This document shows, one piece after another, positions 9,132 to 16,704 of a stretch of 64,000 bases of DNA. This stretch comes from Candidatus Poribacteria bacterium (GTDB lineage: Bacteria; Poribacteria; WGA-4E; WGA-3G): contig OZ242029.1 in assembly GCA_965205015.1 (NCBI GenBank), forward strand, positions 4,974,939 to 5,038,938, in the 5' to 3' direction. How positions within the stretch are numbered: position 1 is the first letter of the stretch; every line of letters starts with the position of its first letter. The notes below the pieces were generated by a model. The model was not told the DNA's origin. It saw only the letters and a list, made by a program, of their open reading frames with translations, and searched no databases. A program made the position numbers and the translations under genes.

Positions 9132-10190
9132 CTCTTGATACCACGTTGCGGATTGCTTGGCAATCTGAACGTTTTTCACACCCCCAAATTGGCGATGCTC
9201 AAACCACGGTAAGGCGTTCTCCGCTGCAGCGTTTGCGTTCTTGAAGTTCGTTGTTGCCTCGTTCTCCAAAAACTGCTGAACTGCTCCCGTATCAGGATAG
9301 TATTGGACAGCATCTTTCCAGATAGCTCTGCCGCAAAGGAAACCACTTGCCCCGGCACCGGTCGCCAGGTCAACGTTTTCAATGAATTCCTCAATATCCA
9401 CACCGGCACTCAAAATTACCCACGGGAGTGTCGAGGTTTCATCTAACTTCTGGCAGATGTCCTTCACTTCAGCGAGTTCATACGCAGCGTCGCCTGCATA
9501 AAAACTGGTATCTTTATAATCCGTTGTGTATTTCAGATCAGCAGGAAATTCTAACTTCAGAATGTCAACTTTGTAACTGGGATCCGTGAACTCCTCAACA
9601 CTCCGAATCACAAGGTCGGGTTTCTGTTTCGCGAAGGCGACACTCTTCGTCGTCCCCTCAAGTGCATAACTGACTAATTCCAACAAAAATGGTAAATCCT
9701 GCTTTTCGCATTCGTCCCCGACATGACGCACAAAGGCTTGTTGGTGTTCAAGGGTTTCAGCGGAGGCATCAGGGTGGTAATAGGCGAGGAGTTTAATGGC
9801 ATCTGCCCCGGCACGCTGTGCCTTGGCGATGCTCCAGTTTGCAATCGGATTGGAGAGCCGTTCGTTTTCAGCCACACCTTCACTGACATACCCCGATTCT
9901 TCATAGGCTAAGAGCAATGCGACATCCCGTGGAATCTCGGTGATAGAGTAGGGATGCCCGTAAATTGGGTCGGTCAGAACGGCGGTTGCATTTGGGGAAA
10001 GGATTCGAGTAATCAAAGTCTTCAGGGCTGCGACATCATCGTATTGGACATCAGCATTGTCCTTGTTGAGCGTATCTGCAAGTGCCTGTACCATGGAACC
10101 GCGCTGGTCAATCGCCATCATTTTAAAGCGACCCTTTGCATCGGCGAGTTTCATGATCCCCCGCAATTTACCAGAGGAAATATCGTTCAT
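9126..10190 (-). CDS. lacD: tagatose-1,6-bisphosphate aldolase family protein (class I, LacD-like)
   Basis: KLRGIMKLADAKGRFKMMAIDQRGS, LLAYEESGY, FLLELVSY, VDILKLEFP, WVILSAGV, GFLCGRAIW align block by block with S. aureus LacD. Confidence 0.7.
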   Translation of the reverse strand: MNDISSGKLRGIMKLADAKGRFKMMAIDQRGSMVQALADTLNKDNADVQYDDVAALKTLITRILSPNATAVLTDPIYGHPYSITEIPRDVALLLAYEESGYVSEGVAENERLSNPIANWSIAKAQRAGADAIKLLAYYHPDASAETLEHQQAFVRHVGDECEKQDLPFLLELVSYALEGTTKSVAFAKQKPDLVIRSVEEFTDPSYKVDILKLEFPADLKYTTDYKDTSFYAGDAAYELAEVKDICQKLDETSTLPWVILSAGVDIEEFIENVDLATGAGASGFLCGRAIWKDAVQYYPDTGAVQQFLENEATTNFKNANAAAENALPWFEHRQFGGVKNVQIAKQSATWYQEY

Positions 10191-12661: not shown

Positions 12662-13870
12662 TTAATCGGTCAATCCATCTTGTTCTGCGAATTCAAACAG
12701 TTGCCCACCATCAATAGCCTTTATTTTGCCGCCATATTCCTCGGCAAGAGAGACAAGCAGCTCCGCACCAAGGGAAAGTTTTAAATCAATTTCAAGTGCG
12801 ACAACATAGATAACGGCGTTGTTGCGGTTATGTTCACGCACAATATCAAGAATCTTCTGTGTATTGGTCTCAATTTGTACATAAGCCCCGTCATCTACCT
12901 GCGGCAAGCCATCTGTTATCAAAACAACAACAGTCGGTTCAAACGTTAAGGCGGCTTTAATAGCAGAGAGGATGTTAGTGTCCAGATTGCCCTGAATACT
13001 TTGGGGAGTGAACCTGTCAAGATACTTCAAGACGCGCTCTATGTTTGCGGAGTTCGCCGGGAGCATTTCCTTGCTCATAGGTTTCGCTGTATCGGAAAAC
13101 GCTACAATGTTCAGCTTATCGTTGTTTCCTAACATCATCACGGAATCTTTGAGAGCGTTTATTGCCAGTGGCAATTTTTTCATCCCAGCAGCCTGCATAC
13201 TTGCGGTTATATCAAGACAGTAGACGACATCTTTAGGTCCCCCGAATTCATCAAGGAAATCAATGAGGCCGAGTCGATCTGCGGCGCCATCCTTTCCACC
13301 GCCACCGAGAAGTCCACCGTCGGAACCGCCCTGCCCATCACCACGGAATCTACCCATACCGTCGCCGCGCGCTCGGACCCTACCGGTAACAATACCGCGT
13401 CCATCCGTCCGTCCAGGCTGGGCGATCAGTCTGCTGAGATTTGACGCCTCCGCCTCCCGTAATTGTGCGTCCGTCATAACATCTGGAATCATCTCACTCA
13501 AGGGTGCTTTGTTGACCTCTACGTCTTCGAGAACAACACGCGGACTGAGTTTCATGACCTCATCTATTTTATTCCGAGCGGCTTCAATCTTTTTCTGCTC
13601 TGCATTTCGGGCGAGCTCCTCGTTGGGATCATACATCTTCTTAGTGAGCGGTGGTTTCGGTTTGGGTTTCCGTTTTCTGGGGGCATCGGCATCATTAATT
13701 AAGTCAACAGCGAGGGCATCCGCCTGTTCTTGACTGAGTTGATTTATTGGCAGAAACAGGTAGGTAATCGCGAAAATCATGTGTAGAATAAGCGATAATA
13801 AGATGACAGAGCGTGTGCGGTTTTTACGTCGTCTTGCATCAATGCCCCAAGTTAGCAAATGATTTAACAT
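12662..13870 (-). CDS. von Willebrand factor type A domain membrane protein (BatA/BatB-like)
   Basis: N-terminal TM helix, Lys-rich linker, C-terminal VWA domain with DITASM (DxSxS-like MIDAS motif). Confidence 0.8.
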   Translation of the reverse strand: MLNHLLTWGIDARRRKNRTRSVILLSLILHMIFAITYLFLPINQLSQEQADALAVDLINDADAPRKRKPKPKPPLTKKMYDPNEELARNAEQKKIEAARNKIDEVMKLSPRVVLEDVEVNKAPLSEMIPDVMTDAQLREAEASNLSRLIAQPGRTDGRGIVTGRVRARGDGMGRFRGDGQGGSDGGLLGGGGKDGAADRLGLIDFLDEFGGPKDVVYCLDITASMQAAGMKKLPLAINALKDSVMMLGNNDKLNIVAFSDTAKPMSKEMLPANSANIERVLKYLDRFTPQSIQGNLDTNILSAIKAALTFEPTVVVLITDGLPQVDDGAYVQIETNTQKILDIVREHNRNNAVIYVVALEIDLKLSLGAELLVSLAEEYGGKIKAIDGGQLFEFAEQDGLTD

Positions 13871-13959: not shown

Positions 13960-14499
13960 CTACGTTCCTGACGCAGCTTGTTGATTTTCAAAAGCCTGGA
14001 TCCATGTTCTGCCTTCAGGTGTCAGTTCATAATAGGTGTGATTTCGGTGCTTGATCCATTTCCCCTTGACGATATTTTTTCGATAGTGGATGATCCGGCC
14101 TTCAACCCGTTTTAAACCACCCAGATCCCTCAATTTACGATGTCGCTGGTGCGTCTCTTCAAGCGGAATTCTCAAAGTTTCAGCGACAACGATAGAATAG
14201 TCCATCCCCAATTCTTGATGGTGTTTGAGTATAAAGTAATCGGTCTCATCAAGTTCGGCAAACTCAGAGGGAAGTGCAATTGAATCCGTCGGCGTCTCGG
14301 TTGTTCGAACTTCATCCCACGCGACTGTCAAGAGTCGCTCTGGTCGGAAGCCTTGCACCGCACGACAGTCGACGTGATGGACAGTTATCGTGCTGTCTTC
14401 CTTGAAGTATCCAGTGATTGCGTCCCCTTCTTGAGGGGCACAGCACTTCGCGATTTTATAGGTGAGTTCCGCTGCCATATCTTTGCACCATTGCAACAC
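13960..14499 (-). CDS. RelA/SpoT zinc-finger (CC/ZFD) domain fused to PadR-like winged helix
   Basis: AELTYKIAKCCAPQEGDAITGYFKEDSTITVHHVDC...PERLLTVAWDEV parallels E. coli RelA [36 protein letters not shown]...PERIVDAVWGE; C-terminus HRKLRDLGGLKRVEG...HTYYELTPEGRTWI matches the PadR wHTH pattern. Confidence 0.55.
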   Translation of the reverse strand: MLQWCKDMAAELTYKIAKCCAPQEGDAITGYFKEDSTITVHHVDCRAVQGFRPERLLTVAWDEVRTTETPTDSIALPSEFAELDETDYFILKHHQELGMDYSIVVAETLRIPLEETHQRHRKLRDLGGLKRVEGRIIHYRKNIVKGKWIKHRNHTYYELTPEGRTWIQAFENQQAASGT

Positions 14500-14544
14500 C
14501 GTCTATTAACCCAAGTTCCATTTTTTTATGGATATAACCCGTTA

Positions 14545-14670
14545 CAGGGTAGGCACGAGACCTACCCCTACAGGGTAGGCACGAGACCTGCCACAGGGTA
14601 GGCACAAGACCTACCACAGGGTAGGCACGAGACCTGCCACAGGGTAGGCACAAGACCTACCCCTACAAGG
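14545..14670. repeat. tandem array of 5 hairpin repeats, unit GGGTAGGCACRAGACCTRCC plus ACA or CCTACA linker
   Basis: Five contiguous ~23-nt units, each a GGTAGG...CCTACC palindrome; no intervening spacers; same family as the dispersed GGCAGGTACAAGACCTGCC-CCTACAAG elements. Confidence 0.85.
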
Positions 14671-14694: not shown

Positions 14695-15969
14695 TCATTC
14701 CCGTTCCAATGCGCGATATCCGATGTCCCGCCGCGCGTGTGCATTCTCAAAATGAATGACGGAAACGCCTTTATACGCCTGTTGAATCGCATCGCGCAAC
14801 CTGCCAGCCACAGCCGTGACCCCTAACACTCGACCGCCATCGGTGACAATGTTTTCACCCTTCTGCTTTGTGCCTGCATGAAAGACGGTAACGCCCTCAA
14901 TCGCATCGGCATCTTCAAGCCCTGTGATCACTTTACCTGTCTGGTAGGGATCTGGATATCCACCTGAAGCCATAACGACACACGCTGCTGCCTCGTCATG
15001 CCATTGCACATCAGCGTACTGTTCAAGCGTTCCGTCAATGCATGCGATTAGCAAAGGGACTAAATCACTTTTGAGGCGAGGTAAGAGAACTTGTATTTCA
15101 GGGTCTCCAAAACGACAGTTGAATTCCACGACTTTCGGACCGGCCTCGGTAATCATCAATCCGACGTATAGCACACCTTTGAAGGGTCTTCCAATATCTG
15201 CCATGCCGTTGACAGTCGGGTAAACGATGCGTTGCATTACATCGTCATGTAATACTGGTGTGATAACAGGTGCTGGAGAATAAGCCCCCATTCCGCCAGT
15301 GTTTTTGCCTATGTCCCCATCATGTGACATCTTATGGTCTTGGGAGCTGACAAAAGGGAGACAGTAGGTGCCATCGGTAAGCACTGTGAAAGAGGCTTCT
15401 TCACCGATGAGTTCCTCTTCAATGACGACACTATCGCCTGCCTCACCGAATGCCCTATCCACCAAAATCGTTTTGACGGCTTGCCACGCCTCCTTGAAGG
15501 TGCGTCCGGGGATGACGCCTTTGCCTGCCGCGAGTCCATTTGCCTTAACGAAAACTGGGGCATTGCGATCTTCAATGTATGCCATCGCTGCTTCGGCATC
15601 CGTAAATGTCTGGTGTTCCGCTGTCGGGATTCCGTTTTTTACCATCAGCTGCTTGGCGAAATCTTTACTCGCTTCCAAGCGTGCTGCGCGTTTATCGGGT
15701 CCAAATGCCTTCAACCCGCGTTCACTGAAGACATCTATAATCCCGTCAGCCAATGGGGCTTCGGGTCCGACAACGGTTAGCGCAATGCCTTGGGACGCTG
15801 TCCAATCTGCCAAGTCGGTAAACCGATCGGGCATGGGGATAGATTCTGAGATTTGCGCGATGCCAGCATTACCGGGCGTGCAATAGATTTTTTCGACGAG
15901 TGGACTCTGGGCAAGTTTCCATACGAGCGTATGTTCGCGTCCGCCTTGCCCCACAACCAGAATTTTCAT
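14695..15969 (-). CDS. purD: phosphoribosylamine--glycine ligase
   Basis: MKILVVGQGGREHTLVWKLAQSP N-terminus and ATP-grasp body. Confidence 0.95.
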   Translation of the reverse strand: MKILVVGQGGREHTLVWKLAQSPLVEKIYCTPGNAGIAQISESIPMPDRFTDLADWTASQGIALTVVGPEAPLADGIIDVFSERGLKAFGPDKRAARLEASKDFAKQLMVKNGIPTAEHQTFTDAEAAMAYIEDRNAPVFVKANGLAAGKGVIPGRTFKEAWQAVKTILVDRAFGEAGDSVVIEEELIGEEASFTVLTDGTYCLPFVSSQDHKMSHDGDIGKNTGGMGAYSPAPVITPVLHDDVMQRIVYPTVNGMADIGRPFKGVLYVGLMITEAGPKVVEFNCRFGDPEIQVLLPRLKSDLVPLLIACIDGTLEQYADVQWHDEAAACVVMASGGYPDPYQTGKVITGLEDADAIEGVTVFHAGTKQKGENIVTDGGRVLGVTAVAGRLRDAIQQAYKGVSVIHFENAHARRDIGYRALERE

Positions 15970-16140: not shown

Positions 16141-16704
16141 ATGCGCAATACACAGCTCCGAGACATAGAAGTTTACGAGACCTTAAATGGTCAAGTACCG
16201 TTCACTGAATGGTTTGCATCCATTCAAGATACAAAAACACAAACCAGAATTCGAGGACGACTTGATCGCCTGGAAAAAGGGAACTTTGGAGAAACAGCGA
16301 TGAGAAAGTACCGGAAATGGCGAGAAATCGTAATAGAGCAACTTGCAGCCGACTGGGATGCGGCATTTGACTATATTCAATTCGCAATGGAAGAATACCA
16401 AGTTGATGGGGATACCGCAGTGTTTCTGCTTGCCCTCCGAACGTTTGTAGAATCTCAAGGGGGTATTACTGAGCTTAGCAAAAAAACCGGCGTGAATAGA
16501 GAAATTTTCTCGAAAGTGCTTTCATCTGAGGAACCTCCGCGACTTGACATGTTCGTAACTATTCTATCTGCCCTTGGGGGCAAACTTTCAATTAAACCGC
16601 TGGGATCCGAGGATTTTCGTGGAGAAAAGGAAGATGTGGATGCTGTGTTAGCAACATCAGAGGGTATAAAACCCGATATAGTATTCGCTAGAGATAACAA
16701 ATAA
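16141..16704 (+). CDS. in-frame fusion of truncated HigB-like killer-protein N-terminus with an intact HigA-like antidote protein
   Basis: Residues 1-53 (IEVYETLNGQVPFTEWF...RLDRLEKGNFGE) match the N-half of the TIGR02683 killer family but lack the VGEGVSELR...GPGYR half; rest (DWDAAFDYIQFAMEEY...GDTAVFLLALRTFVESQGGITELSKKTGVNREIFSKVLS...LSALGGKLSIKP) matches the TIGR02684 antidote family. Confidence 0.6.
   Translation: MRNTQLRDIEVYETLNGQVPFTEWFASIQDTKTQTRIRGRLDRLEKGNFGETAMRKYRKWREIVIEQLAADWDAAFDYIQFAMEEYQVDGDTAVFLLALRTFVESQGGITELSKKTGVNREIFSKVLSSEEPPRLDMFVTILSALGGKLSIKPLGSEDFRGEKEDVDAVLATSEGIKPDIVFARDNK

What the first reader, a model, noticed from the sequence alone, without database searches (positions are those of the whole stretch)
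13960..14499. Standalone RelA/SpoT zinc-finger (CC/ZFD) domain fused to a PadR-like winged helix
The N-terminal ~60 residues align closely with the conserved-cysteine/zinc-finger domain and the following linker of long RelA/SpoT enzymes (IAKCCxPxxGDxIxGY...ITVHxxDC...PERxxxxxW). In RelA that region contacts the ribosomal A-site finger. Here it is detached from any synthetase/hydrolase/TGS domain and instead followed by a PadR-type wHTH (HRKLRDLGGLKRVEG...HTYYELTPEGRTWI). To my knowledge this architecture is not a described family. It could couple a ribosome/rRNA- or alarmone-related signal to transcription. It is adjacent to a VWA membrane protein and the tandem hairpin array.
Basis: partly seen in the sequence, partly recalled or inferred. 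Interest (0 to 1): 0.55.

Follow-up and report, generated by a model that had tools for sequence, protein, structure and literature searches.

The report
Detached RelA ribosome-docking finger on winged helix
A small, strongly conserved gene of Poribacteria joins the zinc-finger module that anchors the starvation sensor RelA to the ribosome to a winged-helix nucleic-acid-binding domain (DUF2250); databases already list the family, but nobody has studied it, and it may link ribosome state to gene expression.

Summary
Window 13960..14478 (-) is a real 172-aa gene; the true start is the ATG at 14478, not the GTG at 14499. Residues 4-58 are homologous to the RIS/ZFD domain of long RelA/SpoT enzymes (hhalign E=5e-18; CCHC ligands invariant; model within 1.8 Å of B. 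subtilis Rel ZFD). Residues 77-170 are a basic winged helix of Pfam DUF2250, not PadR proper.

There is no synthetase, hydrolase, TGS or ACT domain, and no RSH remnant nearby. Both domains are under strong purifying selection.

The architecture is not unique. More than 1000 proteins of about 170 aa carry it in Poribacteria and Zixibacteria/GN15. They are auto-annotated RelA_RIS + DUF2250 and named "DUF2250 domain-containing protein". I found no paper that discusses this architecture.

In Poribacteria the order purD-X-VWA-SDR is nearly universal and probably co-transcribed. Zixibacteria do not share it.

A parallel family in Firmicutes and Bipolaricaulota fuses the same winged helix to release-factor-1 domain 1. 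That is a second detached module from a factor that binds the ribosomal A site.

Best model, inferred at about 0.4: the RIS module docks at ribosomal bridge B1a and the winged helix is the effector. The main rival, about 0.35, is an ordinary DNA-binding regulator that reuses a zinc knuckle. Function is untested.

The parts
13960..14478 (-). Gene X: 172-aa RelA_RIS + DUF2250 protein (stop codon 13960-13962). The ATG at 14478 is the supported start; the GTG at 14499 is a mechanical ORF extension.
   Evidence: orthologs start at the MAAEL equivalent; dN/dS 0.085 against 82 Poribacteria orthologs.
14305..14478 (-). N-terminal RIS/ZFD-like zinc knuckle (aa 1-58): four beta-strands, a short helix and the PERLLxVxW strand.
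   Evidence: hhalign E=4.7e-18 to the RSH RIS. (rmsd 1.8 Å to 6htq_x); dN/dS 0.12.
14365..14445 (-). Stretch holding the four predicted zinc ligands: C12 and C13 (14440-14445), H34 (14377-14379) and C38 (14365-14367). They correspond to E. coli RelA C612, C613, H634 and C638.
   Evidence: translation. (invariant in Poribacteria and Zixibacteria). (alignment to RelA 604-660).
14251..14304 (-). Acidic, poorly conserved interdomain linker (aa 59-76).
   Evidence: pLDDT <50 at residues 62-67. (dN/dS 0.31 for aa 59-77). (variable columns).
13963..14250 (-). C-terminal DUF2250 winged helix (aa 77-172). It has three helices, an extended beta wing with the invariant KWIKHRNHTYYELT motif, and a C-terminal helix. 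Net charge is basic.
   Evidence: PF10007, E=1.2e-13. (MarR/AspA-like fold). (invariant wing). (dN/dS 0.035). (hhalign E=9e-20 to DUF2250 of the RF1-like fusion family). Basic charge counted from the sequence.
14695..15969 (-). purD (phosphoribosylamine-glycine ligase), the conserved upstream neighbour on the same strand; probably co-transcribed.
   Evidence: upstream of X in all 80 Poribacteria species loci from the genome scan; spacer of 2-43 nt in 36 of 83 loci.
12662..13870 (-). Membrane-anchored VWA-domain protein, the conserved downstream neighbour in Poribacteria only.
   Evidence: found in 79 of 80 scan loci; in the remaining locus the contig ends 1.2 kb after X; spacer of 34 nt or less in 22 of 83 loci. 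Absent next to X in Zixibacteria.
14544..14661 (.). Five tandem 23-nt hairpin units (GGGTAGG-N7-CCTACCC) in the purD-X spacer. This is a lineage-specific REP-like insertion and not part of the conserved unit.

Best explanation
SHOWN.
- The ORF is a genuine, single, strongly constrained gene of a Candidatus Poribacteria genome.
- It encodes two independently folding modules joined by a fast-evolving acidic linker.
- The first module is a CCHC zinc knuckle homologous to the RIS/ZFD (CC) domain of long RelA/SpoT enzymes.
- The second is a basic DUF2250 winged helix. It sits where RelA has its ACT/RRM domain but is not homologous to ACT.
- The protein has no catalytic or TGS domain, so it cannot make, degrade or tRNA-gate (p)ppGpp.

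INFERRED (working model).
- The RIS module keeps the job it has in RelA. [quoted passage not shown]
- In RelA the domain that follows RIS (ACT) clashes with a fully accommodated A-site tRNA, and RelA does not bind rotated, EF-G-bound ribosomes. By extension X would bind only non-rotated ribosomes whose 50S A site is free.
- The tethered winged helix is the effector. It binds nucleic acid, either DNA when released or rRNA/tRNA when docked.
- The protein would therefore read or exploit A-site vacancy. It could be a regulator sequestered on idle ribosomes, or a trans-acting RelA-CTD mimic that occupies the Rel binding site.
For: Domain identity.

Real gene with both domains constrained: dN/dS 0.12 for RIS, 0.035 for the winged helix; 416 homologs of the same length; 998 hits with the Zixibacteria profile.

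What the RIS domain is known to do, from papers read here:
[quoted passage not shown] The same paper reports the ACT clash with accommodated A-site tRNA.

The length of the ASF-docking helix in X (8 residues between C38 and ER) falls within the 8-11 range seen in RSH sequences fetched and in E. coli RelA.

Independent parallel: about 31 proteins from Bipolaricaulota, Sporohalobacter, Desulfotomaculum and Firmicutes MAGs carry the same winged helix (hhalign E=9e-20). In them it is fused to a three-helix bundle homologous to release factor 1 domain 1. The profile matches RF1 residues 5-101 in PDB at E=1.3e-7 and RF2 at 3e-4. Pfam PCRF scores 34.4 bits against a cut-off of 24. The model matches RF1/RF2 on the ribosome. 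From established knowledge, that domain is another peripheral ribosome-contacting module of an A-site factor.

No conserved private promoter or operator: the purD-X spacer is 2-43 nt in 36 of 83 loci, and I saw no shared palindrome in the X-VWA spacers. This is atypical for a local MarR/PadR-type regulator.

The wing motif KH(R/M)NHTYY is conserved across Poribacteria, Zixibacteria, the RF1-like family, and single-domain and tandem DUF2250 proteins from other bacteria and haloarchaea. That suggests a conserved target rather than diverse operators.
Against: - There is no direct evidence of ribosome binding.
- X lacks the RelA segment 590-595 that touches 16S rRNA, and it lacks the ACT domain that forms the anchoring superdomain with RIS. 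Affinity could therefore be low.
- The closest structural analogues of the winged helix are DNA-bound MarR and PadR-like proteins.
- JGI and NCBI call single-domain and tandem DUF2250 proteins 'predicted' or 'putative' transcriptional regulators.
- The other DUF2250 contexts seen are DNA- or metabolism-related, not translational: after HerA-NurA, after TatD, and fused to HPPK in a folate operon.
- Gene neighbourhoods of X in Zixibacteria and of the RF1-like family show no translation genes.
- The RF1-domain-1 similarity involves a helical bundle. Foldseek E-values for it are weak (0.025-0.04).
Confidence: 0.4

Rival explanations
1. X is an ordinary DNA-binding transcription factor or nucleoid protein. 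The DUF2250 winged helix binds DNA. The RelA-like zinc knuckle has been re-used as a structural, oligomerisation, or zinc/redox-sensing accessory, with no ribosome involvement.
For: The winged-helix fold is closest to DNA-bound MarR family members and to the PadR-like centromere binder AspA. The C-terminal domain is basic (sequence). Sources call DUF2250 proteins 'predicted transcriptional regulator'. DUF2250 genes sit next to DNA enzymes (HerA-NurA, TatD) and in a folate operon. The four Cys/His ligands are the most conserved feature of the N-domain. From my own recall, not checked here: older genetics on E. coli RelA implicated C612, D637 and C638 in C-terminal-domain oligomerisation.
Against: No conserved upstream operator or divergent target gene; X is wedged in a probable purD-X-VWA transcript. 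Conservation of the whole RIS fold, including the PER...W strand shared with RSH enzymes, goes beyond what a bare zinc site needs. It does not explain why the same winged helix was independently fused to RF1 domain 1. A dN/dS of 0.035 and a wing motif invariant across domains of life are unusual for a specific regulator.
Confidence: 0.35
2. X is an operon-specific partner of the downstream membrane-anchored VWA protein in Poribacteria. For example, it could regulate or be regulated by that protein, and this could be its main role.
For: X is followed by the VWA gene in 79 of 80 Poribacteria species loci from the genome scan, often with a spacer of 34 nt or less that holds only a ribosome-binding site. 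The linkage survives insertion of a MatE gene in a divergent genome. One metagenomic ORF reads from X in frame into the VWA gene (P0126).
Against: In the three Zixibacteria loci examined, X orthologs (40-44% identical to X by tblastn) have no VWA neighbour and sit in variable contexts. By the positive-inside rule (my reading of the sequence), the VWA domain is outside the cytoplasm, away from a soluble nucleic-acid binder. The whole purD-X-VWA-SDR block is syntenic, so linkage may simply reflect phylum-wide gene order.
Confidence: 0.08
3. X senses (p)ppGpp or another alarmone and transmits this to transcription.
For: Only its ancestry from RelA/SpoT and its position directly after purD, a purine biosynthesis gene.
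Against: The RIS/ZFD domain is not described as a nucleotide-binding site in the papers read. No synthetase, hydrolase or ACT domain is present. purD linkage is absent in Zixibacteria.
Confidence: 0.04
4. The ORF is a decayed or out-of-frame remnant of a long RelA/SpoT gene.
For: None beyond the local similarity to the RSH C-terminus.
Against: More than 1000 homologs of 160-185 aa share the same two domains. The gene is intact in all 83 loci analysed, with strong purifying selection. tblastn with a full-length RSH finds only the RIS stretch in the 64-kb window and in the fetched loci. The flanks are purD and VWA.
Confidence: 0.01

Closest known systems
C-terminal RIS(ZFD/CC)-ACT(RRM) ribosome-anchoring superdomain of long RelA/SpoT homologs (E. 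coli RelA residues ~600-744; B. subtilis Rel)
   Same: Homologous RIS domain: same CCHC ligands, same four-strand plus short-helix fold, same PER...W exit strand, and 27-37% identity. A second domain follows directly, in the position ACT holds in RelA.
   Different: No HD, synthetase, TGS or alpha-helical domains. The following domain is a DUF2250 winged helix, not ACT; hhalign homology stops at residue 60. X also lacks the N-terminal RIS extension that contacts 16S rRNA. It is a free-standing 172-aa protein.
Single-domain and tandem DUF2250 (PF10007) proteins of archaea and some bacteria, called 'predicted transcriptional regulator' by JGI
   Same: Same winged-helix family, with the signature wing motif KHRNHTYYxLT.
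   Different: These lack any N-terminal zinc knuckle. Many carry a C-terminal '...PYKR' tail that X does not have. Their contexts differ: after HerA-NurA, after TatD, or fused to HPPK. None is characterised experimentally in the literature searched.
RF1-domain-1-like + DUF2250 proteins (Sporohalobacter salinus, Desulfotomaculum, Bipolaricaulota and Firmicutes MAGs)
   Same: Same winged helix (hhalign E=9e-20), preceded by an acidic junction. The N-terminal module is likewise a non-catalytic part of a factor that binds the ribosomal A site.
   Different: The N-terminal module is a three-helix bundle from class I release factors instead of the RelA RIS knuckle. The taxa differ, and the wing reads KHMNHTYY.
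PadR / MarR-type winged-helix regulators (e.g. AspA of pNOB8, MarR, ZitR)
   Same: Overall winged-helix fold. X also shares the PadR-like YYxLTxxG wing motif and a following C-terminal helix.
   Different: X does not reach the PadR or MarR family thresholds. It has an extra hairpin in the wing and a different N-terminal module. It shows no paired operator or divergent target arrangement.

Membership tests
Pfam DUF2250 (PF10007) | Score above the curated gathering threshold of the family HMM | tested here: met
   51.5 bits against a cut-off of 24.4, E=1.2e-13, profile positions 7-90 of 93. hhalign E=9e-20 to another DUF2250 subfamily.
RelA RIS / ZFD / CC domain (Pfam PF28438 RelA_RIS) | Sequence homology to the RIS region of long RSH enzymes | tested here: met
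   TIGR00691 positions 553-609, E=7e-10. RelA 604-660. hhalign E=4.7e-18. Precomputed PF28438 on all family members. The local Pfam copy lacks this model.
RelA RIS / ZFD / CC domain (Pfam PF28438 RelA_RIS) | Conserved Cys-Cys...His...Cys zinc ligands | tested here: met
   C12, C13, H34 and C38 are invariant in 24 sequences from two phyla and align with RelA C612, C613, H634 and C638. Zinc binding itself was not measured.
RelA RIS / ZFD / CC domain (Pfam PF28438 RelA_RIS) | Four-stranded sheet plus short helix zinc-finger-like fold | tested here: met
   The AlphaFold2 model has pLDDT 81-91 over residues 11-60. Foldseek gives rmsd 1.8 Å over 51 residues to B. subtilis Rel (6htq_x).
RelA RIS / ZFD / CC domain (Pfam PF28438 RelA_RIS) | Binds the ribosome at bridge B1a (A-site finger H38 and uS19) | not testable with these tools
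   Known for RelA from PMC4974054 and PMC5829649. Testing X needs biochemistry or complex modelling.
Long RelA/SpoT homolog (RSH) enzymes | (p)ppGpp synthetase and/or HD hydrolase domain, plus TGS and ACT domains | tested here: not met
   No such Pfam or NCBIfam domain in X. The TIGR00691 score is 37.8 bits against a cut-off of 499. tblastn with a full RSH aligns only to the RIS stretch. ACT homology is rejected. X is not an RSH.
PadR family transcriptional regulators (PF03551) | Score above the family HMM threshold | tested here: not met
   X gets no PadR hit in Pfam at E<=10. The NCBIfam PadR model scores 14.1 bits against a cut-off of 112. The Zixibacteria homolog P0122 scores 13.7 against 27. 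The resemblance is limited to fold and wing motif.
MarR family | Score above the family HMM threshold, and a dimeric helical N/C-terminal interface | tested here: not met
   No MarR Pfam hit for X. Foldseek similarity covers only the winged-helix core (TM-score normalised to the target ~0.45-0.5).
Anti-phage defence or phage protein families | Match to a PADLOC or PHROGs model | tested here: not met
   No hits for X or the VWA neighbour in PADLOC, and none for X in PHROGs.

The most novel reading that the evidence does not exclude
Bacterial DUF2250 fusion proteins could be a previously unrecognised class of ribosome-docked winged-helix factors. Different phyla would have independently taken non-catalytic ribosome-docking modules from A-site translation factors and tethered the same winged helix to them. 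Those modules are RelA's RIS knuckle in Poribacteria and Zixibacteria, and RF1 domain 1 in Firmicutes and Bipolaricaulota. The result would be a trans-acting protein that reads A-site vacancy. It would then either relay that state to gene expression or compete with Rel or release factors for their landing sites.
Probability: 0.25. Interest if true: 0.8.

Novelty: new variant of a known kind. Interest (0 to 1): 0.5.

Why it matters
In the papers read here the RIS/ZFD domain appears only as the ribosome anchor inside long RelA/SpoT enzymes. A free-standing copy, kept under strong selection as a gene found in 273 species-representative genomes spanning at least two candidate phyla, would matter in one of two ways.

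- If it still binds bridge B1a, it is a new kind of small ribosome-associated factor. It could compete with or complement Rel. It would also give a simple handle on how cells read A-site vacancy without an alarmone.
- If it does not bind the ribosome, it shows that the RIS fold has a second, ribosome-independent function. That bears on the old debate about what the RelA C-terminal cysteines do.

Either way it gives the first functional lead for DUF2250, a family found in both archaea and bacteria with no published function in the library searched. It also points to cultured organisms where the sister architecture could be tested, for example Sporohalobacter salinus.

Tried and rejected
1. Homology of X residues 60-125 to the RSH ACT domain. 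BLAST and HMMER local alignments run on into ACT. Profile-profile alignment stops at residue 60 and the predicted secondary structures differ. Rejected.

2. PadR or MarR family membership. Rejected on HMM thresholds.

3. The tandem hairpin array as an operator or RNA target of X. The unit is absent from most orthologous loci, single-copy in some close relatives and present at an unrelated site in L061. There is no Rfam match. It is a lineage-specific REP-like expansion.

4. A conserved operator in the purD-X or X-VWA spacers. The spacers are often too short, and only a ribosome-binding site and a clade-specific promoter-like TATAAT are shared.

5. Defence-system or phage origin. No PADLOC or PHROGs hits.

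6. RSH pseudogene remnant. Rejected.

7. Conserved gene neighbourhood outside Poribacteria. None found in the 3 Zixibacteria loci or in the 2 loci of the RF1-like family.

8. Foldseek against AFDB50. The library was unavailable.

9. Literature. Only 2 papers mention DUF2250; the one I opened lists it only in a table and the other is on an unrelated topic by title and abstract. No paper combines Poribacteria with the stringent response. A search for PF10007 returned Plasmodium gene IDs only.

10. I could not check whether Rel of Poribacteria or Zixibacteria still carries its own RIS-ACT.

Full report
WHAT IS THERE. The minus strand carries an ORF at 13960..14499. Alignment with 27 orthologs shows that the protein starts at the ATG at 14478 (MAAELTYK...), giving 172 aa. 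The GTG seven codons upstream is a mechanical extension. The gene lies between purD (14695..15969, -) and a membrane-anchored VWA-domain gene (12662..13870, -). A short-chain dehydrogenase follows the VWA gene. The best database match is 100% identical and sits on a 5.65-Mb contig; named homologs are from Candidatus Poribacteria.

N-TERMINAL DOMAIN. Residues 4-58 are homologous to the RIS/ZFD/CC domain of long RelA/SpoT enzymes. The evidence is as follows.
- NCBIfam spoT_relA positions 553-609, E=7e-10.
- E. coli RelA 604-660 in ribosome-bound structures, E=1e-5 with one sequence and 3.5e-8 with the family profile.
- Profile-profile hhalign against RSH C-termini: E=4.7e-18, probability 99%.
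- The collection's precomputed Pfam annotation labels the region PF28438 RelA_RIS. That model is newer than the local Pfam copy, which explains why one search missed it.
- C12, C13, H34 and C38 align with RelA C612, C613, H634 and C638. They are invariant in 24 sequences from two phyla.
- An AlphaFold2 model (mean pLDDT 80) gives a four-strand plus short-helix knuckle. It superposes on B. subtilis Rel ZFD at 1.8 Å over 51 residues, with 37% identity.

BLAST and HMMER alignments to RSH proteins run on to about residue 125, across the RSH ACT domain. The profile-profile alignment stops at residue 60 and the predicted secondary structure differs. I therefore reject ACT homology.

C-TERMINAL DOMAIN. 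Residues 77-160 hit Pfam DUF2250 at 51.5 bits against a cut-off of 24.4. PadR, Mrr_N and DUF4364 appear only below threshold. The model shows three helices, an extended beta wing and a C-terminal helix. Foldseek's best matches are MarR-family regulators and the PadR-like centromere binder AspA (TM-score normalised to the target ~0.8). The domain is basic. Its wing motif KWIKHRNHTYYELT is invariant across Poribacteria and Zixibacteria.

The family, however, is DUF2250.

IS IT A REAL, INDEPENDENT GENE? Yes.
- 416 homologs were found with the window protein and 998 with a profile of the divergent clade. The 120 best listed in each search are nearly all 160-185 aa and nearly all carry RelA_RIS + DUF2250.
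- Against 82 Poribacteria orthologs, dN/dS is 0.12 for RIS, 0.31 for the linker and 0.035 for the winged helix, with synonymous sites near saturation.
- tblastn with a full-length RSH finds nothing but the RIS stretch in the 64-kb window and in the fetched loci.
- There is no synthetase, hydrolase, TGS or ACT domain.

The 'remnant of a larger gene' refutation condition is therefore not met.

DISTRIBUTION AND CONTEXT. A scan of one genome per GTDB species found 273 loci that encode a relative. The 80 best are all Poribacteria. The divergent clade (40-44% identical to X by tblastn) is named Zixibacteria/Zixiibacteriota and candidate division GN15 by NCBI.

In Poribacteria the order purD-X-VWA-SDR holds widely. 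purD is upstream in all 80 scan loci. The VWA gene is downstream in 79 of 80; the remaining locus is cut by the contig end. Spacers are short: purD-X is 2-43 nt in 36 of 83 loci, and X-VWA is 34 nt or less, holding only a ribosome-binding site, in 22 of 83. No sigma-70-like promoter or intrinsic terminator is predicted on the minus strand around X. Co-transcription is therefore likely, and X has no conserved private operator.

In the three Zixibacteria loci examined the neighbours are different and variable. They include a GYD-domain gene, nitroreductases and an aminotransferase, and there is no VWA gene. The VWA link is therefore phylum-level synteny and not a property of the family.

The five 23-nt hairpin units upstream of X (14544-14661) occur nowhere else in the window. 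One or two copies sit at the same spot in a few close relatives, and three copies lie at an unrelated position in L061. They have no Rfam match. They look like a REP-like element that expanded locally.

THE WIDER DUF2250 FAMILY. An exhaustive profile search of 1.84 billion representatives found very few full-length two-domain representatives at the 50% clustering level. Apart from the Poribacteria cluster, only two divergent full-length ones appeared, P0122 and P0123. The remaining hits are fragments, RSH enzymes matching only the RIS part, or DUF2250 proteins matching only the winged helix. The DUF2250-only hits include:
- single-domain proteins of about 90-115 aa in Thermotogota (Athalassotoga, Mesoaciditoga) and Desulfurella;
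- tandem DUF2250 proteins in Halobacteriales; another tandem gene, of unnamed taxon, starts directly after HerA-NurA;
- one single-domain gene after TatD;
- an HPPK-DUF2250 fusion that closes a folP-folB-folK operon.

The most informative is a family of about 31 proteins of roughly 215 aa. It occurs in Bipolaricaulota, Sporohalobacter salinus, Desulfotomaculum and Firmicutes MAGs. Their C-terminus is the same winged helix (hhalign E=9e-20). Their N-terminus is homologous to domain 1 of class I release factors:
- Pfam PCRF positions 1-90, 34.4 bits against a cut-off of 24;
- family profile against PDB: RF1 residues 5-101 at E=1.3e-7 and RF2 at 3e-4, both ahead of designed coiled coils;
- the AlphaFold2 model (pLDDT 88.6) matches ribosome-bound RF1 and RF2 over 110-125 columns, though with weak Foldseek E-values.

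These genes also stand alone, without a conserved operon.

HOW IT PROBABLY WORKS. Shown: X combines a zinc-knuckle RIS domain, an acidic flexible linker and a basic winged helix, has no enzymatic domain, and both domains are strongly constrained.

From the literature read here:
- In RelA the RIS domain is the major ribosome-binding element. [quoted passage not shown]
- The ACT domain that follows RIS clashes with an accommodated A-site tRNA.
- RelA does not bind rotated, EF-G-bound ribosomes (PMC4974054).
- The ASF-ZFD contact is key for RelA binding (PMC5829649).

In X the corresponding helix is three residues shorter than in E. coli RelA. It still lies within the range seen in other RSH sequences.

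Inferred: X docks through RIS on non-rotated ribosomes whose 50S A site is free, and it places or sequesters the winged helix there. The independent fusion of the same winged helix to RF1 domain 1 is the main indirect support. The lack of a private operator and the near-invariant wing add to it. I put this model at about 0.4.

The main rival, at about 0.35, is a conventional DNA-binding regulator or nucleoid protein in which the zinc knuckle is a structural, oligomerisation or redox module. In its favour are the DNA-bound MarR/PadR structural neighbours, the 'predicted transcriptional regulator' labels and the DNA-enzyme contexts of other DUF2250 genes.

The two models are not exclusive. Alarmone sensing, a VWA-specific partner role and pseudogene status rank lower, for the reasons given under the rivals.

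COMPARISON AND NOVELTY. X is not an RSH, because the defining catalytic, TGS and ACT domains were tested and are absent. It is a member of DUF2250 and carries a bona fide RelA_RIS domain. It is not a PadR or MarR family member by HMM.

The architecture is already captured by automated annotation. It is common in two candidate phyla, so the window copy is not unique. I found no paper that treats the architecture or the DUF2250 family. I rate it a new variant of known kinds, with moderate interest (0.5).

The strongest unexcluded reading is a new class of ribosome-docked winged-helix factors built from detached A-site-factor modules. I give that a probability of about 0.25. It would be of high interest to the ribosome and stringent-response fields.

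Noticed in passing
Loci L088 (5001-5675) and L089 (5001-5654); proteins P0256, P0195, P0389-P0417: A family of about 31 proteins of ~215 aa fuses a release-factor-1 domain-1-like three-helix bundle to a DUF2250 winged helix. It occurs in Sporohalobacter salinus, Desulfotomaculum, Bipolaricaulota and Firmicutes MAGs. Sources call it only 'DUF2250 domain-containing protein'.
   Followed up: partly
window 14544-14661: Five tandem 23-nt units, each a 7-bp stem with a 7-nt loop (GGGTAGG-N7-CCTACCC), lie between purD and gene X. They are unique within the window. One or two copies sit at the same spot in relatives L010, L012-L015, L017 and L020, and three copies lie elsewhere in L061 (about 9523-9600). 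No Rfam match. Looks like a REP-like element.
   Followed up: partly
L090 5001-5816 (and L091 2822-3637): An HPPK (folK) enzyme fused to a C-terminal DUF2250 winged helix, as the last gene of a folP-folB-folK operon. A type I restriction-modification system follows.
   Followed up: no
L095 5001-5618: A tandem 2x DUF2250 gene starts 2 nt after the end of a HerA (DUF87)-NurA pair, which suggests a DNA-end-processing context for that DUF2250 branch. The taxon is not named by any source.
   Followed up: no
protein P0126 (metagenome fragment): An ORF in which the C-terminus of an X ortholog reads in frame through the spacer into the VWA gene. This is either a natural fusion or readthrough in one lineage, or an assembly or stop-codon error.
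   Followed up: no
window 16141-16704 (+): A 187-aa ORF whose C-terminal half matches the 'dnstrm_HI1420' addiction-module antidote family (E=1e-8). The N-terminal ~85 residues may be the cognate toxin fused or run together with it (my reading; I ran no search on that half).
   Followed up: no
window 12662-13870 (-): The VWA protein has an N-terminal Arg-rich segment and one TM helix, a Lys/Pro-rich spacer (KRKPKPKPP) reminiscent of TonB, a Gly-rich stretch and a C-terminal VWA domain. It evolves faster (54-92% identity) than its neighbours X, purD and SDR.
   Followed up: partly
single-domain DUF2250 proteins P0136, P0142, P0143, P0145 and the HPPK fusion P0144: These non-RIS DUF2250 proteins end in a short conserved tail (e.g. 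LDLKYPYKR, LNLHFPYKR, IDIEYPSR, DIDRPKR). The tail is absent from the RIS-fused and RF1-like-fused forms.
   Followed up: no
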